In this document: positions 19,284 to 37,851 of the stretch, piece after piece
Layout: each line of letters opens with the position of its first letter
Position numbering within the stretch: the stretch's first letter is position 1
From: an uncultured delta proteobacterium
Lineage (GTDB): Bacteria; Desulfobacterota; Desulfomonilia; UBA1062
Direction: 5' to 3'
Assembly (NCBI GenBank): GCA_963752595.1
Contig: CAVVYZ010000020.1
Location: forward strand, 96,001-160,000
Length of the DNA stretch: 64,000 nucleotides
Notes under the pieces: model-generated
What the model saw: only the letters and a program-made list of their open reading frames with translations
Database searches by the model: none
Told to the model about the DNA's origin: nothing
Program-made: the position numbers and the translations under genes

Positions 19284-19835
19284 TCACTTAAAAAAGTATG
19301 AAAAATTCAATCCAATTGTTTTAAAATCACTTTGTCGCCCACGGCTTGAGAAGTTGTATGTATAATTCGCTGTAAATCGCACCTCTTTATTTACCCAGAG
19401 ATGAACCCCGATTTCGGGATAGAATGTAGCCATCCAATCGTTTACTACCGTTCTATTTTCCCCAGATTCATCAACTAACCCATCACCGTCGTTGTCTATA
19501 TTATCTTCATCAGCCTTCTCTTCTGTTTCTGAATAACCATAAAATAATCCCATTCCTGCATATGGGGAAATGCGGTATGGAGTTGTTGCCCTAATCGCTA
19601 ACTTATAACCGCTGAGTACCTCTTCAACGTGTTGATGACCCAATAACATCATGCTTCCATAGAGCGAGAAAATATCACCATTATAAGCCTCTGCTCCTAC
19701 TTCTAAGCCTAACGCACGAGGATTCCTTGAGAGATCAGATGCTATAAACAGACATAATTTCTCAATCTCTGATCCCCATATAGGTGAATTGATAAGCAAG
19801 AAAACAAGAGTCGTTATCAACATAGATAATTTCAA
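19284..19835 (-). CDS. Secreted or outer-membrane beta-barrel-like protein (cassette)
   Basis: Signal peptide, amphipathic strands, C-terminal aromatic residues, acidic DNDGDGLVDE loop. Confidence 0.65.
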   Translation of the reverse strand: MKLSMLITTLVFLLINSPIWGSEIEKLCLFIASDLSRNPRALGLEVGAEAYNGDIFSLYGSMMLLGHQHVEEVLSGYKLAIRATTPYRISPYAGMGLFYGYSETEEKADEDNIDNDGDGLVDESGENRTVVNDWMATFYPEIGVHLWVNKEVRFTANYTYNFSSRGRQSDFKTIGLNFSYFFK

Positions 19836-19843
19836 AAAATACC

Positions 19844-19908
19844 TCCTAACGTGCGGGCATCAGCGGGGCGGGCGGCAGCCCGCGTCCGCCTGGATGCTAT
19901 AGTTATGT
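19844..19908 (-). repeat. attC site
   Basis: TCCTAAC...GTTATGT, 65 bp. Confidence 0.92.
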
Positions 19909-20406
19909 CTTTTTCTTAAAGGCTCTTTGTGTAGTGTGCTTAAGGCATTCACCCAAAACACCGGCCTCGTTGACAAAAGGTTTACGGAACCATTCCCATA
20001 TGGAGAATCGTATTTCGGTAACCAATCTATATTCACATTCAGTAATTATACCACTATCGTTAATGGTGAATGAATAAGAATAAGGCCCCAGTGTGCTGGA
20101 TGGTAGTAGCCCTAGGGTAAAAACAGAAAGAAGTAACGGCATGCCACATGAATATGGACCACCTATAGGGTTCAGTTTTAAATTCGGCGCATTAGGATTA
20201 TCTACAATTCTAAACTTTCCGGATTTTAAAAGTATTTTATACTCCTTTGGATATTGTTTAGCGTTAACAACGAAGACTTCATAATTATTTAGATCAAACC
20301 ATATGGTTTGCTTTGTATATTGGTGAGGATCTTGGTCAATATATTTAAGCGTGCTTGTGCAGCCCGAGATGAAAAAAATCAAGCCTGCAAGTAGATATGG
20401 TTTCAT
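19903..20406 (-). CDS. Putative lipoprotein (cassette)
   Basis: MKPYLLAGLIFFISGC lipobox; stop codon overlaps attC R''. Confidence 0.75.
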   Translation of the reverse strand: MKPYLLAGLIFFISGCTSTLKYIDQDPHQYTKQTIWFDLNNYEVFVVNAKQYPKEYKILLKSGKFRIVDNPNAPNLKLNPIGGPYSCGMPLLLSVFTLGLLPSSTLGPYSYSFTINDSGIITECEYRLVTEIRFSIWEWFRKPFVNEAGVLGECLKHTTQRAFKKKT

Positions 20407-20422
20407 AAGTTCTCCACATGGG

Positions 20423-20549
20423 ACATAATGGTTTGGCTCAGCGGCAGCGGCGAGGCACACAAGACTCCTTTGCCATTATCACTCACTTCTTGCAAGCCGA
20501 CGCTTCCCCTCGGCAGCGGAGCCACTGTCCGCTGGAGCCAGTGTTAGGC
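20423..20549 (-). repeat. Long attC site with mutated crossover (ATT instead of GTT)
   Basis: ACATAAT...TGGCTCAGCGG...CCGCTGGAGCCA...GTTAGGC, 127 bp. Confidence 0.8.
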
Positions 20550-20627
20550 GCACCGCTTATTATTTTGATTGTTTCCGAAGAAACCCATCTTTTTGCAGCA
20601 AAATGGGCTTTACCGGTAAGGCAAGAC

Positions 20628-20825
20628 TCAATCTCGAAGAAGTGCATTTACTAGAAGCCCGAAAGCCAAAGCAGACGCCCCAAGACAAAGACCTGCGCCA
20701 ATCCATTGGGCGTTGAAGAGTGCAAACACAGCGGCTAGCAATCCTGCAAACCCGGTAATCAATACAGCAATTACCACGATCCCAAGAAGGGTTTCAGACC
20801 GGTTAGATTTCTTTTCCATTTTCAA
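20628..20825 (-). CDS. Small two-TM membrane protein (cassette)
   Basis: 65-aa hydrophobic ORF between two attC sites. Confidence 0.65.
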   Translation of the reverse strand: MKMEKKSNRSETLLGIVVIAVLITGFAGLLAAVFALFNAQWIGAGLCLGASALAFGLLVNALLRD

Positions 20826-20875
20826 CTCCTTACCTTATCAAGCCGTGATTTTCAAGTGTCTTTCCAAGAGAGGTG

Positions 20876-20956
20876 CACCAACGTTTGAGCTAACCGGCAT
20901 GCAAAAGCAGAGCGTAGCGGCGCTTTTGCATGTCCGTGTTGAGCTATTTGTTAAGC
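20876..20956 (-). repeat. attC site
   Basis: CACCAAC...CATGCAAAAGC/GCTTTTGCATG...GTTAAGC, 81 bp. Confidence 0.88.
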
Positions 20957-21730
20957 GCAGTCAAACTTGACCATGATGTGGTTTGGAAGATCAGACTCCT
21001 TTCTTCCGACCATCGCGTAATAGAACAACGGACGTCCATCAATGGAGATGCGGTGTCTGTATCGTTCCAAATGATGAACCTCCAACACATCGCTTAGTAG
21101 CATCCACTTGACCAAGCTGGAAAAGCCAGAAGTATCGCTCTCAAGCAGGAATGATTCCTTGATATTGAAGGCAACCCATCCTGCCGGCGCAATCAAATTA
21201 AATGCATTGGCAAAGGCCTTTGCTGGAATATCACCAAAACCGAGTGCTGCGACACAAGAAAGACAATTAATCTGCCACGCGACTAGTTCTTGCTGCATGG
21301 CAACGTCCAGATCACAAAAGTCGCAGACATAATACGCATCGTATATACCCGGCCTGTCACGCTCGCAGGCGATATACGCTTCTTTGCAGATGTCAGCGCC
21401 AATAACGCGGGCTACGCCCACAGTTTGCAGTTGCTCTCCAAACATACCGTTTCCGGCTCCGAGATCGAGCACGCGCAACTCTGTCATTTCAGCATTGTTA
21501 TCTCTCATAACCTTGCTCAAGATATCGCCGACTTTTTTGGGAGAACTACACTTGAGGCGCTGATAAAAAAGCTGCTCGTATAAATCGGAACGCTTGTAAA
21601 TTTCGCCATATTCATGAAAGCGGAGCCTAATTTCCTGTCCGTTTTCGGTGAGGTAGAAAAATGCCTCATCTTGGTCGAGCTGATGAGGTTCCGTAACAGG
21701 GAGCTTGATGTTATATTGCTGATGCTTCAT
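20951..21730 (-). CDS. Class I SAM-dependent methyltransferase (cassette)
   Basis: LRVLDLGAGNGMFGE motif; stop codon in attC. Confidence 0.85.
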   Translation of the reverse strand: MKHQQYNIKLPVTEPHQLDQDEAFFYLTENGQEIRLRFHEYGEIYKRSDLYEQLFYQRLKCSSPKKVGDILSKVMRDNNAEMTELRVLDLGAGNGMFGEQLQTVGVARVIGADICKEAYIACERDRPGIYDAYYVCDFCDLDVAMQQELVAWQINCLSCVAALGFGDIPAKAFANAFNLIAPAGWVAFNIKESFLLESDTSGFSSLVKWMLLSDVLEVHHLERYRHRISIDGRPLFYYAMVGRKESDLPNHIMVKFDCA

Positions 21731-21750
21731 ATTACCTCCATTGAAAAGAA

Positions 21751-21809
21751 GCCTAACGACATGGGTCAGCGGCGCGCGACAGCGCGTCCGCTGGAGCCGA
21801 TTGTTCGGT
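21751..21809 (-). repeat. attC site
   Basis: GCCTAAC...GTTCGGT, 59 bp. Confidence 0.92.
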
Positions 21810-21818
21810 TCAGGTCAT

Positions 21819-22879
21819 TCATCTTTTCATATTCTTCTTTGCTGTCTTAATGAAGCGTCCGAATGCCCTGTCCTTTTTACGTTTGTCCAAGTACGACATC
21901 TCATAGTGCTCTGACTCTTTCCTGAGTTTCAAATAACTGGAATAGCGCTCTTCACTCAACTCGCCGTTTGTAATTGCAGTAAGAACTGCGCAGTCTGATT
22001 CCTGAGTATGGCTGCAATCGGCATAGCGACAAGCCATGGAAAGCTCAATAATATCTTCAAACCCTTTGTTTACCCCTTCACTGGCGCCCAGAAGGCCTAA
22101 TTCTCTCATTCCAGGTGTATCAATGAACATAACGCCTTTATCAAGAACAATGAGTTGCCGACGCGCTGTTGTGTGTGTGCCTTCTCCTGTTCCACTGACA
22201 GCTTTAGTATCAAGATCATCCCGTCCAATCAGATGATTGATCAGTGTAGTCTTGCCGACTCCGGATGACCCAAGCAGGCAATATGTTCGACCCGGTATTA
22301 ATACCTGGTGGAATTCGTCAAATCCGGAGCCGGTTATGTTACTGAGTGCAATAACCCTGGTCGTGATGCCGGCCTGTCTGATAGCCGCAAGCTTCTGTTG
22401 CAGCTCATCGTGGGAGATCAAGTCCGTTTTGGCAAGAATGACAATCGGCTCAACATGTCCGTCGGCTGCCATTACTAAATACCGATTCAGTCTCGGTAGA
22501 TTAAAGTCAAAGTGACATGACTGGACAATGAAAGCGATATCAATGTTGGCTGCAATCATCTGGTAGTCCACTTCTACGCCGGCACGCTTTCGGCGTAAAA
22601 ACGTCCTTCGTGGAAAGACCCCATGGATGATTGCCAGGTGTCATCATTGTGATACTGCACGGTGACCCAATCGCCGACACATGGCAGCTCGACCGATGAC
22701 TCAACATGGAAATAGAACTTCCCCGCAAGTTCAGCAGGAATCTCTCTGAGTTCATTCCTGATAATGTAGGAATTGCGATCAACTGCCGACACGCGTGCAA
22801 TGCCTTGATCCTCGTGGCGGATGTCATCGACATGTGCTTCAAACCAGTGGTCAAAACCTAGATCACTCAATTTCATCAT
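21819..22879 (-). CDS. rsgA: RsgA-family GTPase (cassette; frameshift near 22580-22640)
   Basis: OB-fold PCVGDWV, AANID, LLGSSGVGKTTL, HTT, IDTPGMRE, CRYADCSH..E..C Zn finger. Confidence 0.88.
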
Positions 22880-22887
22880 AACTTGTC

Positions 22888-22944
22888 ACCGAACGTGCGG
22901 ATCACCGGCGGCTGAAAGCCGTCCGGTGGATGCCATTGTTGGGC
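22888..22944 (-). repeat. attC site
   Basis: ACCGAAC...GTTGGGC, 57 bp. Confidence 0.92.
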
Positions 22945-23244
22945 TTATTCGATAACTGGTATCCCACGATAACTATGCCAGATTCTTAGGACTTGGATTG
23001 TTTTAAGTGAGTTATCTATAAAGTAGATGATTCGATAAGGCTTTAGAATTGCTTCTCGAATTGAATCTTCACCTTTTTCAGGCACAACTCGATTTGAGAA
23101 GGGAAATTCAGATGCAAGTTCAATATGGTAGATAATCCGATCAGCAAGTTTTGCAGCTGCATCAGGATTATCAAGAGCGATGTACTGAACTATTTCTTTT
23201 AAATCCTCGTATGCAGATTCAGCCCATTTTATTGTGAAAGCCAT
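22945..23244 (-). CDS. RelE/ParE-family toxin (cassette)
   Basis: WAESAYEDLKEIVQYIALDNPDAA...PYRIIY...LRIWH. Confidence 0.9.
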   Translation of the reverse strand: MAFTIKWAESAYEDLKEIVQYIALDNPDAAAKLADRIIYHIELASEFPFSNRVVPEKGEDSIREAILKPYRIIYFIDNSLKTIQVLRIWHSYRGIPVIE

Positions 23245-23414
23245 TTTTTAAGACTTTCTTTTACCTCTTTATGTGGAACGATTTTACCTTCTTTGATGTC
23301 TGCGAGGCCCTTATCAATAGCGGCAAGAAAGTGAATCCGCTCTTCAATATCATTCCAAGTGGCTGAATCTGGGAGTTCCTGAATGGTTTTTATTGCGATT
23401 TCTTTGCTATTCAT
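23229..23414 (-). CDS. Putative antitoxin (cassette)
   Basis: 61 aa, IDKGLADIKEGKIVPHKEV; overlaps toxin start. Confidence 0.8.
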   Translation of the reverse strand: MNSKEIAIKTIQELPDSATWNDIEERIHFLAAIDKGLADIKEGKIVPHKEVKESLKKWLSQ

Positions 23415-23464
23415 ATCACTTATATACTCCTTTGAAACGATTCAGACAAGTTGCATTATCTGAG

Positions 23465-23521
23465 GCCCGACGTGCTGATCACCGGCGGCTGTAAGCCGTC
23501 CGGTGCATTGGCTGGTTGGGT
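23465..23521 (-). repeat. attC site with mutated crossover (GTC instead of GTT)
   Basis: GCCCGAC...GTTGGGT, 57 bp. Confidence 0.85.
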
Positions 23522-23638
23522 TGTGGATGGGTACAGAATTTCGCGCTCTATTTAAACCGGCACAGATTCTTCAACCCTAAAGCAGATTCATGTCCTGCAA
23601 TGAAAAACTTAGCCCAACAACCACTGACAGGCGAGCCT

Positions 23639-24541
23639 TCAACGAAAAAACCTCACCGGAAGATTTCCCCAGCCATCGGCCTTGAGAAACTCCAGCGCCG
23701 CACTCACCACCTCTACCGGCTTTTCTTCGTGTACCAGTAGGCGGGCACCCGGAATCTCCAGCAGACGAGCATCTGGAAACTGCTTGACCATCTTGCGCGC
23801 CAGGTCGACGGGAAACGTCGGATCGTCTGCGCCCCAGATCAGTTGCACCGGCATCGTCAGCCTCATATGCGCTTGCTCCAGCACGTCTACCGGCGCCCAC
23901 TGCGCGCCGAGCAGATAGCGTCGCACGCCCTCCATCCGCTGCGGTGAACGCCGTAGCGGTTCGATAATGTAGTCGTGAAAATCGCCTTCGATCAGGCGGA
24001 TATCGGTAAAGCATCCGCCGAACCCCATGGCCGACTGCAGAAACAGTGGCCAGCGCAGCAACACATTGAACACCGCCAGAATCCCTGGCACGTGCATCAG
24101 GAACTGGTAGAGAGGAATCCAAGGCGGACGATGCCCGGGCATCTCGGTGTTGATGAGAATCAGCTTGTCGATACGCGATACATCCTCAAGCGCGAGGAAG
24201 CGGGCGAAAGTGCCGCCGGTGTCCTGTGCCATTACGCTGTAACGCTCTAGACCCAGGCTATTGACCAGCCGCTTCAGCGTCTGCCCTTGGCCCGGAAAGC
24301 TGAAGTCGGTCGCATCCGTCCACTCACTTTCGCCCATACCGGGGATGTCCGGTACGTAGCATGTGTAGTGCATCGACAGCTCAGGAAGCAGCTTGCGCCA
24401 GGTGAAGCCGGAGAGCGGAAACCCGTGCACCAGTAGCAAAGGTGAACCCTTGCCGTATCGGCGACAGGGGAGCCGTTCGTTGCCTGTGTCCACCGTCTGC
24501 ACCGGCGTGTCAAAGTAGAACCGAGTAGTCGCTTCTGTCAT
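23639..24541 (-). CDS. Alpha/beta hydrolase (epoxide hydrolase/dehalogenase-like; cassette)
   Basis: LLLVHGFP, AQDTGG nucleophile elbow, LIWGADDP, HEEKP. Confidence 0.9.
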   Translation of the reverse strand: MTEATTRFYFDTPVQTVDTGNERLPCRRYGKGSPLLLVHGFPLSGFTWRKLLPELSMHYTCYVPDIPGMGESEWTDATDFSFPGQGQTLKRLVNSLGLERYSVMAQDTGGTFARFLALEDVSRIDKLILINTEMPGHRPPWIPLYQFLMHVPGILAVFNVLLRWPLFLQSAMGFGGCFTDIRLIEGDFHDYIIEPLRRSPQRMEGVRRYLLGAQWAPVDVLEQAHMRLTMPVQLIWGADDPTFPVDLARKMVKQFPDARLLEIPGARLLVHEEKPVEVVSAALEFLKADGWGNLPVRFFR

Positions 24542-24754
24542 AATAATTAATCAGCCACCGATGATTACTGACACAATTGATGCTACCAATGACACGATTT
24601 CCATATGTTCCCCTCTAACTGCCCAACGTGTAGATCAGCGGCGCGGGCGGCAGCCCGCGTCCGTCTGCATGCGTTTGATACTATGTAAGGCCTCCTCGAA
24701 TGGGTGGTATATTTGCTGGACCAACACCAAAAACCAACCAAGGAGGAGGCTTAA

Positions 24755-25798
24755 ATGAGATTCTACACCAAAGAGCACAAATTTTATTGTGGAATCGATC
24801 TGCACACCAAAAAAATGTATGTGTGCATACTGGGAAGCACAGGGGATATCATGGTTCACCGGAACATGAATACAGATGCAGGCGCTTTTCTTGAGCTCAT
24901 TGCTCCCTTTCGCGAGGACATCGTGGTAGCTGCAGAGTGCATGTTCACCTGGTACTGGGTAGCTGATCTGTGCGCCAAAGAGGGAATTCCTTTTATCCTG
25001 GGCCATGCTCTCTATATGAAAGCAATCCATGGCGGAAAGAGCAAAAACGACAAGATCGATTCCCATAAAATTGCTGTGCTCCTTAAGGGCGGCATGCTGC
25101 CCCAGGCATATGTCTATCCGGCGAAGATGCGCTCTACCAGGGATCTCCTCAGGAGGAGAAATCATCTGGTGAGGAAGAGAGCCGAGCTCTTTGCCCATAT
25201 TCAGAACACAAAAAGCCAGTACAACCTGCCGGAACATCTCGGCCGCATTGCCAAGCCGAAGAACAGAGAGGGCGTTGTAGAGCGATTCGACGATAGAAGT
25301 GTGAGGAAGAACATGGAAGTGGACCTTGCCATGATCGAAGCCTATGACCGCATCATCCTCCCGCTAGAGCGGGAGATTATAAAGATCGCCAATGGACATG
25401 ATCTCCTTTCCTATACTCTTCTGCAAACCATCCCAGGAGTCGGCAGAATCCTCGCTCTTGTAATGCTCTATGAAATAGAGACCATTAATCGATTCGCAAC
25501 TGTCCAGGACTTTGCCTCATATGCCCGTCTGGTTAAATGTAAAAAAGAATCCAACGGTAAAACCTATGGAACCAGCGGAAAGAAGATCGGCAATGCTCAC
25601 TTAAAGTGGGCTTTCAGTGAAGCATCGGTACTCTTCATCAAGGGCAATGAACCAGCGAAGAAATACCTCGACCGGCTTACCCAGAAACACGGGAAAGGAA
25701 AAGCACTCTCGATCCTTGCCCACAAGCTCGGAAGAGCTGCCTATTACCTGCTGAAAAACAAAGTGGCTTTCGATACTGAGAAGTTCTTGAGCCACTAA
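24755..25798 (+). CDS. IS110-family transposase/recombinase
   Basis: RuvC-like DEDD (GIDLH, AAEC, KNDKIDS), TIPGVG, ESNGK serine loop, GNAHLKWAF. Confidence 0.96.
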   Translation: MRFYTKEHKFYCGIDLHTKKMYVCILGSTGDIMVHRNMNTDAGAFLELIAPFREDIVVAAECMFTWYWVADLCAKEGIPFILGHALYMKAIHGGKSKNDKIDSHKIAVLLKGGMLPQAYVYPAKMRSTRDLLRRRNHLVRKRAELFAHIQNTKSQYNLPEHLGRIAKPKNREGVVERFDDRSVRKNMEVDLAMIEAYDRIILPLEREIIKIANGHDLLSYTLLQTIPGVGRILALVMLYEIETINRFATVQDFASYARLVKCKKESNGKTYGTSGKKIGNAHLKWAFSEASVLFIKGNEPAKKYLDRLTQKHGKGKALSILAHKLGRAAYYLLKNKVAFDTEKFLSH

Positions 25799-25804
25799 AG
25801 AATT

Positions 25805-26345
25805 GGAGGAGACGGATCAGTCCGACGCCTAACTGGAGCCATATGGGGATGGAGCACGCATTCACCTCGATCAGAAAGGGAATAGAATATCCTTGCATGA
25901 TAAGAGTGCTTGAAAAAGGATGTGCCCGATTGGTACCCCGCAGCCTGTTGCGCTTGATTGGAGATCCGTCTCGCTCCTTCGATACATGCTCTTGTTGGTC
26001 AGGTTCTGCCCCTTACCCGAACCCGCGCCTAACTGGGAAGAACAGCACCCCGGCGTTTGACTGGGACGGCACGAGGGAGAACGGCATTGTTTCTAGGTCG
26101 CATTCTTCTAAGAAGAGAGGGCAACCACTCGCTTGCATCTCTCTTCGGGAAGAATGATGAAGAGAACCTCAATAAGTGTTTGGTGCAGGATTTGATTTCG
26201 CTTGCACCCGTTGATGAAACCAAAGCCAGAGCAGCCAACATCGAGCAATATGGTTGAACGGAAAAAAGAATCGTCTTACCGTTCAAGAGTGTCTTGCCAA
26301 TAGACACACAATGCAGACGAAAAAGAAGAACAACTTTTTCGTCTT
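25805..26345 (+). ncRNA. Predicted bridge/seek RNA with three guide loops (copy 1)
   Basis: Nested stems enclose pairs of 9-nt segments that match the attC target (two loops) or the IS junction (one loop); see findings. Confidence 0.75.
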
Positions 26346-26405
26346 GGGGTAGTTTTATCTATTGACAAGAGGAGGCCTTATAAGTGTTCGCCTGCTTTTC
26401 ACCGG

Positions 26406-26669
26406 CTATTCGTAATGTGTCCACATGCGGATGACTTTCACTGTTTTGATGTCATCAAGTATTTGGTAAACCAGCCGGTGTTGGATGTTCATTCTTCTGG
26501 AGCATGCTCCAGATAGATCTCCTAGAAGTTTTTCATATGGCGGGGGAGTCTGATAGGGATCTTCTTTGAGGATTTCGAGCAGATGCTCTGCCTGAGGTTT
26601 TAAACCGGAATGTGCGATCTTCTTGGCGTCTTTCTTTGCCTGCTTGGTAAAGGCTACCCTCCAAGTCAC
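26406..26669 (-). CDS. yoeB: Txe/YoeB toxin (cassette)
   Basis: PPYEKLLGDLSGACSRRMNIQHRLVY...RMWTHYE. Confidence 0.93.
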   Translation of the reverse strand: MTWRVAFTKQAKKDAKKIAHSGLKPQAEHLLEILKEDPYQTPPPYEKLLGDLSGACSRRMNIQHRLVYQILDDIKTVKVIRMWTHYE

Positions 26670-26908
26670 CAGTCAACATCCTCATCGCACTCCTCTACGG
26701 GAGTTCCAAGCCCTTCCCGGATAGATTCACGCATGCCAGGTATTGATGTGAGGTACAAAGTTTCCTGGATTGCTCGCCAATCATCTTCAGAAATAAGAAC
26801 TGCCGAGCTCCTTTTCCCAACGATCTGAATCGGCTCATGGGATTCTTTCACCTCATCCACAAGGCTATATAAACGCTTTCTTGCTTCCGTTGCTGTTAGG
26901 GTAGGCAT
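26666..26908 (-). CDS. yefM: Phd/YefM antitoxin (cassette)
   Basis: TATEARKRLYSLVDEV...AVLISEDDWRAIQETLYL. Confidence 0.93.
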   Translation of the reverse strand: MPTLTATEARKRLYSLVDEVKESHEPIQIVGKRSSAVLISEDDWRAIQETLYLTSIPGMRESIREGLGTPVEECDEDVDW

Positions 26909-26926
26909 ATTATTAAATCTCCTTTA

Positions 26927-26965
26927 CGTACGATATATCGTACGCCATAAGGCAATCAATGTCAA
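26927..26965 (-). promoter_or_regulatory. yefM-yoeB promoter with overlapping palindromic operator
   Basis: Minus strand TTGACA-17-TACGAT; perfect 18-bp palindrome CGTACGATATATCGTACG at 26927-26944. Confidence 0.8.
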
Positions 26966-26975
26966 GTCATTTGAA

Positions 26976-27020
26976 GGCGAACGTAGGCATCAGCGGCGGC
27001 TGAAAGCCGTCCGCTGGATG
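26976..27020 (-). repeat. attC site truncated by IS4-family element
   Basis: GGCGAAC...CAGCGGCGGCTGAAAGCCGTCCGCTGGATG, then IS sequence; R'' GTT box missing. Confidence 0.85.
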
Positions 27021-28304
27021 CATTGGGCTTTATAACTTGTCAATATAACATTCAAAGAATGGCCGTTCTCGATACATTTGTTCAAATTTTCTTGGTTCAC
27101 CACGAACCGCGGGTACAGTAGTTGGTCTCACTTTGTATCGATGCTGTTCTGCCGGTTGGCGCAGGCAAAGAGTATCCGGGAGATTTGCGATGGGCTTGCC
27201 TGTTGCGTGGGAAAACTCAAACATCCGGGGCTTCAGGAATCTCCGAAGAAGTCGACGCTCTCCTATGCGAATGCCCACAGGCCCTGGGAGATGTACCGTG
27301 ATCTTTTCTATCTTCTGCTGGAAAGATACCGTGGAAGCATGAAAGGCAAGAAGAGGAAATTCCGTTTCAAGAACAAGCTGCTTTCTTTGGACAGCACGAC
27401 CATATCCCTGTGCTTGTCCATATTCCCCTGGGCAGAGTTCAGGAGGACAAAAGGTGCGGTCAAGCTGCATCTTCTGCTGGATCATGACGGATATCTTCCC
27501 ACCTATGCCTATATCTCAAACGGGAAAAAGCACGATGTCACCATTGCCAGAAAGGTTCCTCTTACACCGGTCTCCATCGTCACCATGGACAAGGGGTATA
27601 ATGATTACCGCCTGTTTGCTTCCTGGACTGAATCCGGGATCTATTTCGTCACCAGGATGAAAGACAATGCCGTCTACAATGTGGTGGAGGAACGCAGTGT
27701 TCCTCGGCATAAGAATATCCTCTCAGACCAGCTCATCATCTTCACGGGAACAGGAGCCGAAGAGAAATGTCCCCATGTCCTGCGCCGGGTGGTTGTATGG
27801 GACGAAGAAAACCAAAGACAGATTATCCTGCTGACCAACCACTTCTCTTTTTCTGCACGTACCATATCCGCCATCTACAAGGACCGTTGGGAAATCGAGA
27901 TCTTCTTCAAGACGCTCAAGCAGAACCTCAAAGTGAAAACCTTTGTCGGCACCAGCGAAAACGCCCTGTATATCCGGATTTGGACAGCACTTATCGCCAT
28001 GCTCATGATCAAGTACCTGCAGCACATCTCCAGATTATCCTGGTCCCTTTCCAACCTCGTCACCTTGCTTCGCCGGAATCTCTTTACTTACCGTGATCTG
28101 CATGCCTGGCTCGATAACCCCTTTGAAACACCACCGGCTGAACCCGAGTTTGTCCAAGAAGTGCTGCCTTTCCCCGGTCTTGGACAGCATGTGTGCAATG
28201 TAGATAAAATGAGAACCGGGTCATGAAAAATCGCTTGTCCCAAACCTAACGCATTGATTTGTTTTGACCTGAATCAGAAATCAGGATTATTTTGGACAGC
28301 AGTG
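27021..28304 (+). mobile_element. IS4-family element, internally deleted
   Basis: Ends CATTG... and ...GGACAGCAGTG; no target duplication seen; left boundary somewhat uncertain. Confidence 0.75.
27078..28226 (+). pseudogene. IS4-family (DUF4372-type) DDE transposase, N-terminus apparently missing
   Basis: SWSHFVSMLF, LDSTTISL, MDKGY, YKDRWEIEIFFKTLKQ (YREK motif). Confidence 0.85.
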
Positions 28305-28324
28305 GAATTGCATATTAAATTAAT

Positions 28325-28384
28325 GCCCAACGGCGGGCATCACCGGCGCGCGTCAGCGCGTCCGTGTGCATGCCATGGTTGGAT
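28325..28384 (-). repeat. attC site
   Basis: GCCCAAC...GTTGGAT, 60 bp. Confidence 0.92.
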
Positions 28385-28388
28385 GCCT

Positions 28389-28703
28389 TTAGAAACCAGT
28401 AAATAAGAAATCAAGAGCTGAAATGATTACATGACGCTGATCTTTAAGGGTCCCGACCTTTTCGCCTAAAACACGGACAGAAACACCTGCCATCTCAGCT
28501 GTGGACATGTATACAATCTTTCGTTTAATTTTAAACTGTGGATTGAGATGGTCTATTGGTCTTCCTAAGGCTGATGCGCTTATAAGGGGCGCAACAACTC
28601 GTGTTGCCAGAGAACTAAGGAGATCGGCTTGAAGATCGACAAGGTAGGGAATATCTTTTTTTGTACGCTCATTTAAATTTTCATACACATCAAATTGTGC
28701 CAT
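28389..28703 (-). CDS. ccdB: CcdB toxin (cassette)
   Basis: MAQFDVYEN...PYLVDLQADLLSSLATRVVAPL...ALDFLFTGF. Confidence 0.93.
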   Translation of the reverse strand: MAQFDVYENLNERTKKDIPYLVDLQADLLSSLATRVVAPLISASALGRPIDHLNPQFKIKRKIVYMSTAEMAGVSVRVLGEKVGTLKDQRHVIISALDFLFTGF

Positions 28704-28951
28704 TAAAAGTTCCTCAATTCATCACTGAATACTCCTGAGACTTCAATTCGCTGATTATAGGCTTCAATAGCCTCTTTATTATTTTCTCTCCATTTGCAAC
28801 GCTTTTCCTCCAGGAGCATTTCTATAAGGCGCTGCTCCAATGCCCTTGATAAATTGATGCTGTTTTTCTTCGCTTGCTGGAGGAGATCGCTATTGATACT
28901 CAGGTTAGTGGATTTTTTAGGTGCTTTGGGATTAAAGATGTTGATTTGCAT
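28703..28951 (-). CDS. ccdA: CcdA antitoxin (cassette)
   Basis: KKSTNLSINSDLL...INLSRALE...WRENNKEAIEAYN...FSDELRNF. Confidence 0.93.
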   Translation of the reverse strand: MQINIFNPKAPKKSTNLSINSDLLQQAKKNSINLSRALEQRLIEMLLEEKRCKWRENNKEAIEAYNQRIEVSGVFSDELRNF

Positions 28952-28962
28952 GCTTGCCTCCT

Positions 28963-29000
28963 TATGCGCATATAATAGCCACATTAATGCGCATTATCAA
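28963..29000 (-). promoter_or_regulatory. ccdAB promoter with two ATGCGCAT palindromes
   Basis: Minus strand TTGATA-17-TATTAT; palindromes TATGCGCATA (28963-28972) and TAATGCGCATTA (28985-28996). Confidence 0.72.
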
Positions 29001-29029
29001 GCGATTCTTTAGTAATGATATTTGTGATC

Positions 29030-29089
29030 ATCCAACGCCTGAATTAAGCCGCGCCGCGAAGCGGCGTCGGCTTGAATGAGTTGTTAGGC
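29030..29089 (-). repeat. attC site of aadA/aadB-like type
   Basis: Minus strand GCCTAACAACTCATTCAAGCCGACGCCGCTTCGCGGCGCGGCTTAATTCAGGCGTTGGAT, 60 bp. Confidence 0.95.
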
Positions 29090-29135
29090 ATGATTGGATT
29101 TTCCCCACTTTCTGAGTCGCCCGGTAATCCCCTCA

Positions 29136-29882
29136 TCACCGCGTCATCAGCGCGAACACGCCCCAGCCCAGGTATTCACGCGTGTAAGCGGCGTAGCGCT
29201 CGGGTTCCGAGGTTAGTTTGGCTCGAACATCTTTCGCGAACTCGTCGTCGGGATTGGCTTCAAGCCATCGGCGCATGGTGAGCCATTTGGCCGCCTCGTA
29301 TCTGTCCCAGCCGTCTTGGTCAGCCAGAACCATTTCAACGACGTCGTAGCCGAGGTGGCCGAAAGACGCGAGAAGTTCTGGAAGCATGAGAAAGTCGGAG
29401 ATTGAGTCGGCAAGACACCCCTTGGCAACATCTTCCGTCGGCGGTAACTGCCGCCAGTAGGGCTCGCCGATGAGGATGATCCCTCCGGGGCGGAGGCTCT
29501 GCGCCAGAAGTTCGATAGTTCCGCTGACGCCCCCGCCGATCCACGTGGCGCCGAGACAGGCTGCCACACCGGCCTTCTCGTCAGAGACGAAGCCGGCAGC
29601 ATCGCCATGGATGAACTTGACTTGATCGGCGACACCGAGTTCTTCAGCGCGGAGTTTCGCTTGCTCGGTGAACAACTGGCTCATGTCGATGCCGGTGCCG
29701 ATGACTCCGTAATCGCGTGCCCAGGTGCACAGCATCTCCCCCGAACCGCTGCCGAGGTCGAGCACTCGGGTCCCCCTTTCCAGACGCAGCGCCGCGCCGA
29801 GAGTGGCGAGCTTTTCGGGTGTGAACGGGTCATGGATGCGGTGAGCACTTTCGGTGATGTTGAAGATCCGTGGAATATCCAA
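29136..29882 (-). CDS. YjhP-like SAM-dependent methyltransferase (cassette)
   Basis: MDIPRIFNITESAHRIH...VLDLGSGSGEMLCTWARD...YTREYLGWGVFAL, 248 aa. Confidence 0.9.
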   Translation of the reverse strand: MDIPRIFNITESAHRIHDPFTPEKLATLGAALRLERGTRVLDLGSGSGEMLCTWARDYGVIGTGIDMSQLFTEQAKLRAEELGVADQVKFIHGDAAGFVSDEKAGVAACLGATWIGGGVSGTIELLAQSLRPGGIILIGEPYWRQLPPTEDVAKGCLADSISDFLMLPELLASFGHLGYDVVEMVLADQDGWDRYEAAKWLTMRRWLEANPDDEFAKDVRAKLTSEPERYAAYTREYLGWGVFALMTR

Positions 29883-30051
29883 TGTAGTAAACCTCCTTAT
29901 GGGTGTGAATAGATTCGGTCACTGCCTAACGCCAGGCATCAGCGGCGGCTTTAGCCGTCCGCTGGAGGCCTTTGATACTATGTAAGGCCTCCTCGAATGG
30001 GTGGTATATTTGCTGGACCAACACCAAAAACCAACCAAGGAGGAGGCTTAA

Positions 30052-31095
30052 ATGAGATTCTACACCAAAGAGCACAAATTTTATTGTGGAATCGATCTGC
30101 ACACCAAAAAAATGTATGTGTGCATACTGGGAAGCACAGGGGATATCATGGTTCACCGGAACATGAATACAGATGCAGGCGCTTTTCTTGAGCTCATTGC
30201 TCCCTTTCGCGAGGACATCGTGGTAGCTGCAGAGTGCATGTTCACCTGGTACTGGGTAGCTGATCTGTGCGCCAAAGAGGGAATTCCTTTTATCCTGGGC
30301 CATGCTCTCTATATGAAAGCAATCCATGGCGGAAAGAGCAAAAACGACAAGATCGATTCCCATAAAATTGCTGTGCTCCTTAAGGGCGGCATGCTGCCCC
30401 AGGCATATGTCTATCCGGCGAAGATGCGCTCTACCAGGGATCTCCTCAGGAGGAGAAATCATCTGGTGAGGAAGAGAGCCGAGCTCTTTGCCCATATTCA
30501 GAACACAAAAAGCCAGTACAACCTGCCGGAACATCTCGGCCGCATTGCCAAGCCGAAGAACAGAGAGGGCGTTGTAGAGCGATTCGACGATAGAAGTGTG
30601 AGGAAGAACATGGAAGTGGACCTTGCCATGATCGAAGCCTATGACCGCATCATCCTCCCGCTAGAGCGGGAGATTATAAAGATCGCCAATGGACATGATC
30701 TCCTTTCCTATACTCTTCTGCAAACCATCCCAGGAGTCGGCAGAATCCTCGCTCTTGTAATGCTCTATGAAATAGAGACCATTAATCGATTCGCAACTGT
30801 CCAGGACTTTGCCTCATATGCCCGTCTGGTTAAATGTAAAAAAGAATCCAACGGTAAAACCTATGGAACCAGCGGAAAGAAGATCGGCAATGCTCACTTA
30901 AAGTGGGCTTTCAGTGAAGCATCGGTACTCTTCATCAAGGGCAATGAACCAGCGAAGAAATACCTCGACCGGCTTACCCAGAAACACGGGAAAGGAAAAG
31001 CACTCTCGATCCTTGCCCACAAGCTCGGAAGAGCTGCCTATTACCTGCTGAAAAACAAAGTGGCTTTCGATACTGAGAAGTTCTTGAGCCACTAA
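30052..31095 (+). CDS. IS110-family transposase/recombinase
   Basis: Protein identical to 24755-25798. Confidence 0.96.
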   Translation: MRFYTKEHKFYCGIDLHTKKMYVCILGSTGDIMVHRNMNTDAGAFLELIAPFREDIVVAAECMFTWYWVADLCAKEGIPFILGHALYMKAIHGGKSKNDKIDSHKIAVLLKGGMLPQAYVYPAKMRSTRDLLRRRNHLVRKRAELFAHIQNTKSQYNLPEHLGRIAKPKNREGVVERFDDRSVRKNMEVDLAMIEAYDRIILPLEREIIKIANGHDLLSYTLLQTIPGVGRILALVMLYEIETINRFATVQDFASYARLVKCKKESNGKTYGTSGKKIGNAHLKWAFSEASVLFIKGNEPAKKYLDRLTQKHGKGKALSILAHKLGRAAYYLLKNKVAFDTEKFLSH

Positions 31096-31101
31096 AGAAT
31101 T

Positions 31102-31642
31102 GGAGGAGACGGATCAGTCCGACGCCTAACTGGAGCCATATGGGGATGGAGCACGCATTCACCTCGATCAGAAAGGGAATAGAATATCCTTGCATGATAA
31201 GAGTGCTTGAAAAAGGATGTGCCCGATTGGTACCCCGCAGCCTGTTGCGCTTGATTGGAGATCCGTCTCGCTCCTTCGATACATGCTCTTGTTGGTCAGG
31301 TTCTGCCCCTTACCCGAACCCGCGCCTAACTGGGAAGAACAGCACCCCGGCGTTTGACTGGGACGGCACGAGGGAGAACGGCATTGTTTCTAGGTCGCAT
31401 TCTTCTAAGAAGAGAGGGCAACCACTCGCTTGCATCTCTCTTCGGGAAGAATGATGAAGAGAACCTCAATAAGTGTTTGGTGCAGGATTTGATTTCGCTT
31501 GCACCCGTTGATGAAACCAAAGCCAGAGCAGCCAACATCGAGCAATATGGTTGAACGGAAAAAAGAATCGTCTTACCGTTCGAGAGTGTCTTGCCAATAG
31601 ACACACAATGCAGACGAAAAAGAAGAACAACTTTTTCGTCTT
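31102..31642 (+). ncRNA. Predicted three-loop bridge/seek RNA (copy 2)
   Basis: Same as 25805-26345. Confidence 0.75.
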
Positions 31643-31727
31643 GGGGTAGTTTTATCTATTGACAAGAGGAGGCCTTATAAGTGTTATGCTTTTTTGTAAG
31701 GCTCAGATATTAGATAATGAAAGGCTT

Positions 31728-32444
31728 TCAATGCTTTTGAATAGATGGTCTAGATGTGCTTATATCAACATTTGAAAGAACTTTATTAACCATATCATCA
31801 ATTTCAGGATATTTACTCACACGTTTATAATCAGAACGGTATTGTTTTACTCTCTTCAGGACTATGTTGGTGAGCTCTCTATCTTTTTCAGATCCCTTTA
31901 CGGGATAAAAGAATTTCATTACCTTACTATCAAGGTCCCCCTCTACCCATTCAATTGCCTTTTCAACCTCTCCTGATCGTAAGTATCTAAGTGTATGAAG
32001 GCTTACATTTATATTTCTAAGGTCCTCGTTTGTAGGGCCTAATGTATTGGCAAAAAAGAGGTATGCTCCAACCTTTAATCCAAATATTGCACCAAAGAAT
32101 CCTGAAGCAATGATCAATAAAACTATGTTCACTATTTTCAATATGGAATTCTTACCTGTGTTAACGTCAGTCTTATTTTTCAGACGGATGAGCTTCGTAT
32201 CAATCACAAAATCAATAACAACAGAGAAAGCTATTACCCCAAATATTGCCAACCAGTTGCTTTTCAACAACACTATAATTAAACCAGCTGATAAGCCAAT
32301 TAGTAACGATGTAGCACCTAATAGGAAGGTATAATTTATTACTGATATATTACTACAAGACTTACACGAGTGTTCCCCATAGACACTTTTAAAGTATACC
32401 TTCCAGTAAGGAATTGAATCTTCATTGCAGTTTGGACATCTCAT
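31728..32444 (-). CDS. Zn-ribbon membrane protein of unknown function (cassette)
   Basis: CPNC...CKSC followed by three TM segments; AT-rich. Confidence 0.75.
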   Translation of the reverse strand: MRCPNCNEDSIPYWKVYFKSVYGEHSCKSCSNISVINYTFLLGATSLLIGLSAGLIIVLLKSNWLAIFGVIAFSVVIDFVIDTKLIRLKNKTDVNTGKNSILKIVNIVLLIIASGFFGAIFGLKVGAYLFFANTLGPTNEDLRNINVSLHTLRYLRSGEVEKAIEWVEGDLDSKVMKFFYPVKGSEKDRELTNIVLKRVKQYRSDYKRVSKYPEIDDMVNKVLSNVDISTSRPSIQKH

Positions 32445-32466
32445 AAATTTTCCTTCCTATCTTTGA

Positions 32467-32523
32467 GCATAACGTGCCGATCACTGGCGGCTGAAAGCCG
32501 TCCGGTGGATTGGCGGGTTATGC
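32467..32523 (-). repeat. attC site
   Basis: GCATAAC...GTTATGC, 57 bp. Confidence 0.93.
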
Positions 32524-35405: not shown

Positions 35406-36817
35406 GAGCCAATTGCAAAACACACAGATTGCGATAATATTTCAATAAGCAAGATAACTGATTGAAATAATGAAGAGAAAGCTCTATTCTTTTTGTGTCG
35501 AGCAAAAAGAAAGGAGTAACGATGAGCAATCTCTTCGATATTTGGCATACCACACAAGCGAGACTTTTTCCATGGTTGGAAGAGCGACTTGATCCATTGA
35601 GTGAGAAGGAGCAGCAGTTTGTGAAGGTTGTTTCCCTGATGGACTTGCCCAGGCATATGGGTGAATACCGGTGGATAGGGTTAGGCAGGAGACGCGAAGA
35701 CAGGACAGCGATCGCGAAAGCGTTTGTAGCCAAGGCGGTATACAATTTCGAGACGACGAAAGTGCTCATAGAATACCTGATGGGCAGCAAGAACCTGAGG
35801 CGATTATGCGGATGGGAGACGAGAGGGGATATACCATCGGGATCGACCTTTTCACGGGCGTTTGCTGAATATGCTCGGGGGTGCCTGCCCCAGAAGGTTC
35901 ACGAGGCCATGGTGAAGGCGCACTGTGGTGAGAAAATTGCCGGGCATGTGAGCAGGGATGCGACGGCCATTGAGGCGAGGGAGAAGGCGGTGAAGAAAGA
36001 GGCTGAGGAAACCACTCTGTTGCCGAAAAGGAAGCGTGGCCGCCCGAAGCGAGGAGAAGAAGCTGTTCCCAAGCCTCCGAAAAGGCTGGATCTTCAGGTT
36101 GGCCGTAGCCTTGAGGAGAATCTGTCGGATCTGCCGTATCATTGTGACGTGGGGACCAAGAAGGACAGCAAGGGATACAAGATGACGTGGCGGGGCTACA
36201 AGCTGCATATTGACTGTATCGATGGGGACATACCGGTGAGTGCATTGTTGACCTCTGCATCATTGCATGATTCCCAGGCGGCCATACCGCTTGCCCAGAT
36301 GACGTCGAAGCGGGTGACGAGCCTGTATGATCTCATGGACGCCGCCTATGATGCGCCGCAGATCAAGGAGTTCAGTGAGGGACTCTCTCATGTTCCGATC
36401 ATTGATCCCAATCCAAGGCGTGGAGAGAAGATACCTCTTGATCCTGCCAGGAAGGCACGGTTTGCGCAGAGGAGCAGCGTTGAGCGGGTGAATTCGTATC
36501 TGAAAGATAACCATGGAGGGAGTCATATAAGGGTTAAAGGAGCGTCCAAGGTCATGGCGCATCTTATGTTCGGGCTCATTGTCATTACTGCGAACCAACT
36601 CTTCCAGATGCTTTGTTGAAGGATACATGCGATAAAATCAGATATATTCGCACCGCCTATTGGAGTAGGAGCTGGATAGCTGCGCTCGGAAATCGACATA
36701 AGGGTGATGTTGAGCATAGAATCACCGTGTAAATGGCGCGTTATGATCTTTATCTTAGATGTAGACAACTGTATTATGCTTCAATAATTATACGGCAGAG
36801 AGTTTTGCAATTGGCTC
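35406..36817 (+). mobile_element. DDE insertion sequence (IS5/IS1182/ISNCY-like), 1412 bp
   Basis: Perfect 16-bp IR GAGCCAATTGCAAAAC / GTTTTGCAATTGGCTC with 4-bp CACC target duplication. Confidence 0.93.
35521..36619 (+). CDS. DDE transposase
   Basis: SRDATAIE, GYKLH, HDSQ, MDAAYD, RSSVERVNSYLK. Confidence 0.92.
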
Positions 36818-36876
36818 CACCATTAATATTTTTCGGAATACTTGAATGCATTTGTTTTGTTGGGAGGTCCTATCCT

Positions 36877-37851
36877 ATGAAGCCGAAGAATACCCAGGAG
36901 CAAAAGCTCTTTGACGTTGTTTGCGATATCCTCCGCAGAAAGCATTATTCTCTCAAGACAGAGAAATCGTATATATCCTGGATGAGAAGATTCATCAGTT
37001 ATCATAAAATGCGCCATCCCAGGGATATGGGCAAACACGAAATCGAATCGTTCCTCACACATCCGGCTGTTGATCATAAGGTCGCTTCATCAACGCAGAA
37101 TCAGGCATTCAATGCCATACTGTTTCTCTACCGTGATGTGCTGGAAATCAACATCTCGGATGAACTCAATGCCGTGCGGGCAAAAAAGCAAGCCCGCATA
37201 CCCGTAGTTTTGAGCCATGAGGAAGCCTTAAAGGTGATCGACTCCATTACAGGTGTGCATCAGCTCATGGCAAAGCTTCTCTATGGCTGCGGCCTTCGAC
37301 TTACGGAATGCCTCAGATTGAGGGTCAAAGACATCGATTTTGAAATGAACTGCATCGTTATCTTTGATGGCAAAGGGAAAAAAGACCGGGTTGTCATGCT
37401 TCCCAAGAAAGTTGCATTCATCCTTAAAGAGCAGATACAGCATGTACATTCGATCCATAGATATGATCTTGCAAGGGGTTATGGCGCGGTCCATCTTCCA
37501 TTCGCCTTGGAGAAGAAATACCCGAATTCACCAAAACAGCTTGGTTGGCAGTACGTCTTCCCTTCTGATGAAGTATCCCGGGACCCGAGATCCGGAAAAA
37601 CCATGCGGCACCACGTGAGCCCCACGACCCTGCAGAGGGCGGTTAAAAAAGCAGTTGCAATAGCAGGTGTTTACAAGCATGTGGGGTGCCATACCTTCAG
37701 GCACAGTTTCGCCACCCGGCTGCTTGAGAATGGGTACGACATAAGAACCGTACAAGAGCTCCTCGGTCATAAGGACATTAAGACAACCATGATCTACACC
37801 CACGTCATGAACAAAGGGGCTATGGCCGTGAAGAGTCCGCTGGATGTGTAG
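36877..37851 (+). CDS. intI: Integron integrase
   Basis: [17 protein letters not shown], integron-specific insert [10 protein letters not shown]...[20 protein letters not shown]...TTMIYTHV; GGGAGG RBS. Confidence 0.97.

What the first reader, a model, noticed from the sequence alone, without database searches (positions are those of the whole stretch)
25805..26183. IS1111-type bridge/seek RNA with three guide loops: two for attC, one for the donor junction
Seen: the ~590-nt region after the transposase folds into three modules, each with two 9-nt segments framed by similar bases (first segment followed by TGG or TAGG, second by TTGG or CTGG). Loop 1 is closed by GAGACGGATC 25809-18 / GATCCGTCTC 25963-72 and holds ACGCCTAAC 25825-33 plus TGCGCTTGA 25949-57. 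Loop 2 is closed by TGCC..CCC / GGG..GGCA and holds GCGCCTAAC 26025-33 plus GGCGTTTGA 26052-60. Loop 3 has inner stems AGGT/ACCT, CATTCTTC/GAAGAATG and GAAGAGAG/CTCTCTTC and holds CATTGTTTC 26085-93 plus AATAAGTGT 26171-79. Loops 1 and 2 spell the attC R'' targets GCCTAA-CA-AGCGC and GCCTAA-CA-AACGC. Loop 3 matches the circle junction ATAAG-TG-ATACTATG (ATAAGTG 7/7; opposite strand CATAGTATC 7/9). Established: IS110/IS1111 recombinases use an ncRNA, typically with one target-binding and one donor-binding loop, located downstream of the transposase in IS1111. Inference: this element duplicated its target loop, giving a naturally multiplexed RNA-guided recombinase for variable attC sites. I could not check whether this architecture is already described.
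Basis: partly seen in the sequence, partly recalled or inferred. Interest (0 to 1): 0.95.

Follow-up and report, generated by a model that had tools for sequence, protein, structure and literature searches.

The report
Jumping-gene guide RNA with third loop
This jumping gene, which sits in an integron cassette site, encodes a predicted guide RNA with three DNA-reading loops instead of the usual two; across relatives the first loop follows the landing site and the third follows the element's own ends, while the extra middle loop is a weaker copy aimed at the same site, likely used at another step of the reaction rather than to reach a second kind of site.

Summary
All six guide segments are at the stated places in a 1.7-kb IS110-family element (ISGsu4-like) inserted at the R'' box of attC, with a second copy 5,297 bp away. 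The three-loop layout is conserved, with compensatory base changes, in relatives down to 51% transposase identity, and in a sister clade (32-35%) with unrelated, non-attC-like targets.

The multiplexing reading is not supported. Over 114 insertions, loop 1 predicts the landing site (p 0.0002-0.0005, also within close-kin strata); loop 2 adds nothing (p 0.18-0.35). The two loops resemble each other more than chance, and where they differ the site mostly follows loop 1. Loop 3 tracks the element ends. Loop 1 carries the full donor handshake (77 of 80; sister 20 of 20); loop 2 mostly lacks it (15 of 80; 1 of 20).

Best reading: a main insertion loop, a donor loop and an auxiliary same-target loop, probably for another step (excision or direct transfer). 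Expression was not shown. I found no three-loop bridge RNA in nine literature searches. This scan noted the same clade and two-target-loop RNAs before on other DNA.

The parts
24676..26386 (+). IS110-family element, copy A (1,709 bp plus one repeat of the 2-bp core TG at 24676-77 and 26385-86)
   Evidence: an empty site in run X1 joins 24675 to 26385 with one TG
24686..24697 (+). left subterminal inverted repeat (12 bp), 8 bp inside the core
26369..26380 (+). right subterminal inverted repeat, 4 bp inside the core
24755..25798 (+). 347-aa DEDD recombinase/transposase (D15, E61, D99, D102, S266 by alignment to IS621)
   Evidence: PF01548+PF02371, NF033542 above cut-off, alignment to 8wt6
25805..25977 (+). 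module 1: stand-alone target-binding domain, outer helix 25805-22 with 25960-77
   Evidence: helix 1, 11 of 16 pairs with two-sided changes (coordinates)
25825..25833 (+). loop 1 left target guide (attC R'' box plus first core base)
   Evidence: covaries with right flank at -3 and -4, p 0.004 and 0.0025, n=63
25949..25958 (+). loop 1 right target guide (25949-56) and handshake AT (25957-58)
   Evidence: covaries with left flank, n=114; handshake matches donor in 77 of 80
26001..26193 (+). multibranch domain holding loops 2 and 3, closed by helix 26001-09/26185-93
26025..26033 (+). loop 2 left guide (CTAAC nearly invariant; positions further out mostly do not match the target in relatives)
26052..26061 (+). 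loop 2 right guide (26052-59) and handshake AC (26060-61)
   Evidence: resembles loop 1 guide within elements; no independent signal on flanks
26085..26093 (+). loop 3 left donor guide (7 of 9 to the left end read on the opposite strand)
   Evidence: covaries at -6 and -7, p 0.0015 and 0.0005, n=50
26171..26180 (+). loop 3 right donor guide (26171-78) and handshake TT (26179-80)
   Evidence: covaries with right end at -2, p 0.0002, n=28; TT in 71 of 71 parsed
26362..26367 (+). -35 box TTGACA of the predicted circle-junction promoter; the -10 box would be GATACT at 24677-82, 18 bp on
   Evidence: spacing 17 or 18 in all 85 elements with both ends and a TTGAC box; inferred, not assayed
24621..24675 (-). 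attC body interrupted by copy A (rest of its R'' box at 26387-92)
   Evidence: profile search of the genome
29973..31683 (+). copy B, one base different from copy A, in another attC (29924-29972); transposase 30052-31095
36733..37851 (+). integron integrase; its cassette array is read on the minus strand below it
   Evidence: TIGR02249 above cut-off; attC sites

Best explanation
The element is an IS110-family (ISGsu4-like) insertion sequence whose 3' non-coding region encodes a predicted three-loop bridge RNA, in which loop 1 likely selects the landing site, loop 3 likely reads the joined element ends, and loop 2 is an auxiliary loop for the same target that likely works at a different step than insertion of the circle. 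Shown by sequence: element ends, 2-bp core, attC R'' target, conserved fold, guide covariation. Inferred from IS621 work: the element would leave as a circle, the joined ends would form a promoter, and recombinase dimers would load on single loops. Loop 1 with loop 3 would drive insertion, because both carry the full post-exchange handshake. Loop 2 lacks the full donor handshake, so it would hinder less the reaction on the already inserted element (excision/copy-out or direct strand transfer). It would therefore be selected to resemble loop 1, which chose the sites it must read.
For: Loop 1 right guide vs own flank, positions -2 to -5: 2.20 matches against 1.21 expected, n=114, p 0.0002; still p 0.0005 when shuffled only among elements at least 85% alike. 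Loop 1 left guide is reprogrammed together with its flank in L010 and L121. Loop 2 is kept: 12 of 13 loci at >=80% and 51 of 55 at 73-80% have both target loops and the right donor guide under a strict parser, and Vibrio/Alteromonas/Pseudoalteromonas/Catenovulum relatives at 51-57% show both target loops. Loop 2 reads the same target: in the sister clade it covaries with both flanks (left 4.14 vs 3.42 of 7, p 0.0002, n=21; right 2.94 vs 2.14 of 5, p 0.001, n=16), and the two right guides share 4.0 of 5 bases, identical in 9 of 23. In the attC clade the two right guides are more alike within than between close relatives (p 0.0002-0.014). In L154 all three loops and the core changed TG to CG together. 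Where loops differ, the site follows loop 1: 31:8, 49:2, 33:10 at -2, -3, -4; sister 39:8 and 9:2. Handshake: loop 1 has both donor pairs in 77 of 80 and 20 of 20, tracking donor changes AT/AA/AG; loop 2 in 15 of 80 and 1 of 20. Published basis: optimal handshakes for insertion disfavour excision (PMC13626964, passages); loops act as separable modules (PMC11208158, passages); a target-loop-only RNA cooperates with a full bridge RNA in direct transfer (10.1101/2025.10.25.684509, sections read).
Against: No RNA or protein-binding data. The net handshake shift away from insertion is seen only in the sister clade (+1.25 vs -0.25; lower in 18 of 20 loci, not deduplicated); in the window's own clade it is equal (0.96 vs 0.95) and only the absolute number of donor pairs is lower. 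IS621 excision was reported to need no target match (10.64898/2026.08.31.748434, abstract), which weakens the need for an excision loop. At -5 and -6 the site follows the loops about equally (26:21, 23:25). Window copy B fits loop 2 better (5 of 6 vs 3 of 6). In six loci (five Acidobacteriota, one Vicinamibacterales) loop 2 does not resemble the target at all. In GG-core elements loop 1 followed the core and loop 2 did not (3 of 3). Sister-clade tests were not corrected for kinship.
Confidence: 0.5

Rival explanations
1. Multiplexing: loops 1 and 2 are two working insertion guides that split the host's attC variants between them.
For: In this copy loop 2 has a full 7-nt left guide, and the two window insertions fit it as well or better (A 5 vs 5, B 5 vs 3 of 6). 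Unstratified, loop 2 shows some flank signal (1.34 vs 1.07, p 0.0007). IS621's native right target guide pairs only 4 nt (PMC11208158).
Against: Adding an element's own loop 2 to loop 1 explains no more than a shuffled loop 2 (p 0.18-0.35); the marginal signal vanishes in 80% and 85% strata (p 0.15, 0.19). Loop 2 beats loop 1 by two or more matches in 3 of 114 insertions, 3.3 expected by chance; the reverse holds in 33 of 114. The guides converge instead of diverging. Of 27 host attC sites, 19 fit loop 1 better and 3 fit loop 2 better. The layout exists with non-attC-like targets.
Confidence: 0.2
2. Redundancy or avidity: loop 2 is a second, weaker loop for the same insertion reaction. It loads another recombinase dimer, raises target capture or backs up loop 1, with no step of its own.
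For: Same-target convergence; equal net handshake shift in the attC clade; near-invariant core-proximal bases.
Against: A plain backup should keep the donor handshake, yet loop 2 lacks it in 65 of 80 and 19 of 20. Its different structural setting beside loop 3 is conserved from 32% to 100% transposase identity.
Confidence: 0.2
3. Loop 2 is a structural or protein-binding vestige of an ancestral two-loop RNA; its guide-like bases no longer pair with DNA.
For: No independent covariation with flanks in the attC clade; non-matching loop 2 in six loci; L008-L010 moved three times with a loop 2 left guide that does not match their sites beyond AAC.
Against: Loop 2 guides change with the target between and within clades, and with the core in L154. 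A purely structural loop would not do that.
Confidence: 0.1

Closest known systems
IS621 / ISCro4 bridge recombinase and bridge RNA (Durrant 2024 PMC11208160, passages and supplement search; Hiraizumi 2024 PMC11208158, passages; PMC13626964, passages; Perry preprint 10.1101/2025.05.14.653916, passages and section 5)
   Same: DEDD+Tnp recombinase, 2-bp core, loops with a left and a right guide on opposite strands, handshake dinucleotides matching the partner DNA, junction promoter.
   Different: Three loops instead of two; RNA downstream of the gene; 12-bp subterminal repeats; transposase only about 24% identical to an IS621-family protein.
ISGsu4, ISGsu5, ISMahy12, ISShfr7, ISShwo5 (named elements; proteins of ISGsu4 and ISMahy12 seen in the supplement of PMC11187229; cluster listing in the supplement of PMC11208160)
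   Same: By eye the ISGsu4 protein is plainly the same clade as the window's transposase (same N-terminus and motifs); identity was not computed.
   Different: I saw no description of their RNA or target. Their own non-coding ends were not examined here. Siddiquee's tables list ISGsu4 as IS110 and ISShwo5 as IS1111.
IS1111-attC elements ISKpn4, ISPst6, ISPa25 and their seekRNAs (PMC11187229, passages, section 6, supplement 1; target table in PMC13604230, passage)
   Same: RNA-guided insertion into attC, 3' non-coding region, subterminal repeats, top-strand guide before bottom-strand guide.
   Different: They cut at AA*CG, 5-7 bp further into attC; their non-coding region is about 260 nt against 588 here; ISGsu4 is 17% identical to ISKpn4; one target match pair was reported.
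CazIS110-1 direct-transfer pathway (10.1101/2025.10.25.684509, abstract and sections 8-9)
   Same: A free target-loop RNA works beside a full two-loop bridge RNA, which is how module 1 and the loop 2+3 domain are arranged here.
   Different: There both RNAs come from one target loop; here two separate target loops with different handshakes are encoded.

Membership tests
IS110-family bridge recombinase system | RuvC-like DEDD domain plus Tnp domain with catalytic serine | tested here: met
IS110-family bridge recombinase system | conservative insertion around a 2-bp core | tested here: met
   TG at both ends; empty site with one TG in run X1
IS110-family bridge recombinase system | structured non-coding end with target guides that covary with the target | tested here: met
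IS110-family bridge recombinase system | donor guides that covary with the joined ends | tested here: met
   right guide -2 and core, left guide -6/-7; left guide -2 never matches (0 of 50) and -4/-5 show no signal
IS110-family bridge recombinase system | handshake dinucleotides matching the partner DNA | tested here: met
   loops 1 and 3; loop 2 mostly not
IS110-family bridge recombinase system | RNA is expressed, binds the recombinase and directs recombination | not testable with these tools
   needs bench work
canonical two-loop bridge RNA | exactly one target loop and one donor loop | tested here: not met
   three conserved loops
IS1111 family (definition in PMC11187229) | long non-coding region downstream of tnp | tested here: met
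   588 nt downstream, 77 nt upstream
IS1111 family (definition in PMC11187229) | subterminal inverted repeats of 11-13 bp | tested here: met
   12 bp
IS1111 family (definition in PMC11187229) | terminal extensions of 7 (or 6) and 3 bp | tested here: not met
   8 and 4 bp plus the 2-bp core, 14 bp between the repeats on the circle
IS1111 family (definition in PMC11187229) | transposase in the IS1111 cluster with a GL-P----S(t)G motif | tested here: not met
   the window protein reads RLVKCKKESNG there; ISGsu4 is 15-23% identical to the listed IS1111 members; no tree was built
IS1111 family (definition in PMC11187229) | top-strand match precedes bottom-strand match in the RNA | tested here: met
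   first guides pair with the tnp-sense strand
IS1111-attC group (ISKpn4/ISPst6/ISPa25) | inserts in attC | tested here: met
IS1111-attC group (ISKpn4/ISPst6/ISPa25) | same insertion point in attC and related transposase | tested here: not met
ISGsu4-like clade | full-length transposase similarity to ISGsu4/ISMahy12 | tested here: inconclusive
   clear by eye; identity not computed

The most novel reading that the evidence does not exclude
A whole branch of IS110 elements encodes a three-loop bridge RNA with separate guides for the forward and reverse reactions: loop 1, with a full handshake, inserts the circle; loop 2, reading the same site without it, takes the element out. This would be a natural solution to the insertion-versus-excision trade-off.
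Probability: 0.3. Interest if true: 0.85.

Novelty: new variant of a known kind. Interest (0 to 1): 0.62.

Why it matters
Bridge RNAs are described as two-loop guides, and published work shows that a handshake tuned for insertion works against excision. A third loop kept across transposases as distant as 32-35% identity, reading the same target with a different handshake, points to an undescribed step or control in the IS110 cycle. It can be tested with single-loop mutants. The clade also gives a second, independent route to attC targeting at the R'' box, and a large set of naturally reprogrammed guides useful for guide-design rules.

Tried and rejected
Loop 2 reading the other (R') arm of attC: no signal (1.06 vs 1.05, p 0.51, 50 of 114 sites with a foldable hairpin). 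Loop 2 in a shifted register: -2, -1 and +2 nothing, +1 p 0.035 uncorrected. Loop 2 as a hybrid target-donor loop: its right guide does not resemble the right end. A separate genomic target for the aberrant loop 2 of six loci: 19-47 scattered one-mismatch hits per genome, 2-3 times the reversed control, three exact, no repeated element; inconclusive. A natural loss of loop 1 in L065: rejected, the loop overlaps the stop codon. Expression: no RNA holder listed; DNA contigs gave the empty site but no circle junction. Rfam: no match at E<=1. Internal promoter or terminator: one promoter-like site, chance level 1.6; no terminator. Viral contigs: no relative. More multi-copy genomes: low yield. A 28%-identity Rhizobium relative (L232) could not be parsed, so the origin of the third loop is unrooted. 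No structure or complex prediction was run.

Full report
1. Observation. They lie in the 588-nt 3' non-coding region of a 347-aa IS110-family transposase (24755-25798) with the IS621 catalytic residues. The element has 12-bp subterminal repeats and a TG core at both ends. A contig of run X1 joins 24675 to 26385 with a single TG, which fixes the ends. A second copy lies 5,297 bp away with one base change; the genome holds two more, damaged copies at 96% and 88%. Three of the four sit in the R'' box of attC sites; the window's two are in an integron array.

2. Fold. The region folds better than all 100 shuffles (z -2.91). I aligned 56 non-redundant regions (56 of 60 picked; three long ones and the C2 copy were left out). 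The consensus gives module 1 as its own domain, and loops 2 and 3 inside one multibranch domain. For the helices I named, 28 of 46 pairs have two-sided changes and 97.2% of cells pair, against 38-50% for slid partners. The structure came from this alignment, so the count leans towards it. The right guides and the left guides of loops 2 and 3 are unpaired in the consensus. Module 2 alone is not more stable than shuffles, and its guides can pair with each other in this copy.

3. Spread. I fetched 160 homologous loci, the best 80 of 275 and 80 of 567. With a strict parser, both target loops and the right donor guide were found in 12 of 13 loci at >=80% identity (these include the genome's own four), 51 of 55 at 73-80%, 20 of 41 at 65-73% and 4 of 24 at 55-65%. 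Reading the lower bands by eye and with a relaxed parser showed the misses to be mostly parser misses or cut contigs. Six plasmid loci from Vibrio, Alteromonas, Pseudoalteromonas and Catenovulum (51-57%) show both target loops, and five of them the donor loop; L206 is interrupted. Nearly all right flanks begin TT, as attC R'' does.

4. Loop 3 is the donor loop. Its right guide follows the right end at the one variable position (0.89 vs 0.50, p 0.0002, 28 distinct cases) and follows the core (p 0.005). Its left guide follows the left end at -6 and -7 (p 0.0015, 0.0005, n=50), but not at -4 and -5, and never at -2. Its handshake is TT, the complement of the target's AA, in 71 of 71 parsed cases, with 6 unparsed.

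5. Loop 1 chooses the site; loop 2 adds nothing measurable. Of 163 elements with a complete C-terminus, 153 were parsed; 119 had both right guides and a left flank; 114 remained after removing duplicates. Four were set by hand (L082, L153, L154, L156), two lost their loop-2 guide as unparsable, and five loci were skipped as repeats of records already held. Loop 1 matches its own flank at -2 to -5 in 2.20 of 4 positions against 1.21 shuffled (p 0.0002), and p stays 0.0002-0.0005 when shuffling only within groups at least 75, 80 or 85% alike. Loop 2 gives 1.34 vs 1.07 (p 0.0007) unstratified and p 0.0005 at 75%, but p 0.15 and 0.19 at 80% and 85%. Taking the better of the two loops gains nothing from an element's own loop 2 (p 0.18-0.35). 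Where the guides differ, the flank follows loop 1 against loop 2 by 31:8, 49:2 and 33:10 at -2 to -4, and by 26:21 and 23:25 at -5 and -6. Loop 2 wins by two or more matches in 3 of 114 cases (3.3 expected), one being window copy B; loop 1 wins so in 33. On an earlier set of 77, one of three cut-offs for 'loop 1 fits poorly' gave p 0.018 for loop 2; the others gave 0.10 and 0.53. The left guide of loop 2 is CTAAC in about 85 of 87 cases, but its next two bases match the target in only 23-24%. Of 27 attC sites anchored in the host genome (2 skipped), 19 fit loop 1 better and 3 fit loop 2 better.

6. Loop 2 still reads the same target. A sister clade at 32-35% identity has the same three modules but other targets. 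In 28 of 29 loci parsed, both loops covary with both flanks (loop 2: p 0.0002-0.001; n=21 and n=16). The two right guides share 4.0 of 5 bases and are identical in 9 of 23 guide sets; discordant positions follow loop 1 by 39:8 and 9:2. These tests were not corrected for kinship, and the left-guide register was set by loop 1 and applied to both loops. In the attC clade the two right guides are more alike within elements than between close relatives (p 0.0002, 0.0015, 0.014). In L154 the core and all three loops read CG instead of TG; in three GG-core elements loop 1 followed and loop 2 did not. So the third loop is old, predates attC targeting and converges on loop 1's target. That is the opposite of what multiplexing over attC variants predicts.

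7. Handshake. In IS621 the two bases behind each right guide pair with the partner DNA after strand exchange and drive insertion (PMC11208158), and designs optimal for insertion disfavour excision (PMC13626964). Loop 1 has both donor pairs in 77 of 80 distinct cases in the attC clade and in 20 of 20 sister loci, changing AT to AA or AG with the donor. Loop 2 has both in 15 of 80 and 1 of 20. The net shift is +1.25 for loop 1 and -0.25 for loop 2 in the sister clade, but 0.96 and 0.95 in the window's clade. The data thus single out loop 1 as the insertion loop and mark loop 2 as different, without proving what it does.

8. Mechanism. Shown by sequence: ends, core, target, fold, covariation and handshake pattern. 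Inferred: circle formation; a junction promoter (TTGAC, 17-18 bp, then GATAMT-like, in 85 of 85 elements with both ends and that box); loop 1 plus loop 3 inserting the circle; loop 2 acting on the inserted element in excision or direct transfer. That role explains why it mirrors loop 1 without choosing sites. A precedent for a free target loop working with a full bridge RNA exists (10.1101/2025.10.25.684509, sections 8-9). Against it, target-independent excision was reported for IS621 (10.64898/2026.08.31.748434, abstract). I put this reading at 0.5, multiplexing at 0.2, redundancy at 0.2 and a vestige at 0.1.

9. Known relatives. It works like an IS621-type bridge system. Its layout is IS1111-like, but it fails two IS1111 criteria (end extensions, transposase motif and cluster) and is not in the ISKpn4 group (other insertion point). 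By eye it belongs with ISGsu4 and ISMahy12, a lead I took from an earlier scan note (e1-2767947), which reached the same view of loops 1 and 2 on other DNA. Two further unchecked notes describe two-target-loop RNAs in other IS110 lineages. They are leads, not support.

10. Literature. Searches found no three-loop or two-target-loop bridge RNA, with direct phrases, returned 0 papers. Seen: passages of PMC11208160, which mentions multi-loop donor structures in IS1111, plus a supplement search; passages, section 6 and supplement searches of PMC11187229; passages and section 5 of 10.1101/2025.05.14.653916; passages and section 8 of 10.64898/2026.10.21.760802, which says many of its 86 models deviate from IS621; passages of PMC13604230 and 10.64898/2026.03.19.712850. 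Post and Hall 2009 was seen only as a reference; the Science versions of Perry and Pelea were not read. Figures and preprint supplements were not visible and may show this architecture.

11. Verdict. Real, conserved and, as far as these searches reach, undescribed: a new variant of a known kind. The striking claim of natural multiplexing is not borne out. The open question is what a deeply conserved same-target third loop does. Interest 0.62.

Noticed in passing
G000:C2:222477-224179 (minus): An 88%-identical copy with a frameshifted transposase keeps both left guides and loop 3 but has different right guides in loops 1 and 2; it also sits in an attC.
   Followed up: partly
G000:C1:291895-293401 (minus): A 96%-identical copy lacks both ends: it starts at the left inverted repeat and stops just behind loop 3, so it keeps the whole RNA region; its transposase is frameshifted.
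   Followed up: no
G000 attC sites: All 3 occupied attC sites have core TG against 7 of 24 empty ones (Fisher p 0.04). The site at C13:105294 matches loop 1 at 6 of 6 bases but has core GG and is empty.
   Followed up: partly
L008, L009, L010, L121, L130: Loop 1 left guide is naturally reprogrammed away from the attC consensus, with flanks following it; in L130 both target loops changed TAAC to GAAC.
   Followed up: partly
L035, L037, L047, L050, L052, L056: A subclade whose loop 2 guides are conserved but do not resemble attC, while loop 1 still follows the flanks. Unexplained.
   Followed up: partly
L209, L236, L231, L229 right ends: Short tandem repeats of the element's right end or adjacent flank (about 14-22 bp), possibly products of donor-donor or half-match recombination.
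   Followed up: no
L180-L188, L227-L251: A sister clade (32-35% to the window transposase) with the same three-module RNA and targets such as GGGGT-CA, GGGA-CA and TTGA-CA; its left-guide register shifts by one base between members.
   Followed up: yes
window 19000-37851: Integron with integrase at 36733-37851 and a minus-strand cassette array holding several toxin-antitoxin-like gene pairs (by ORF sequence only) and two DDE transposases (27078-28226, 35495-36619).
   Followed up: partly
window 26091 and homologues: The left donor guide has T two bases from the core in all 50 distinct cases while the DNA has A (49) or G (1); that base lies in the predicted -10 box of the junction promoter.
   Followed up: no
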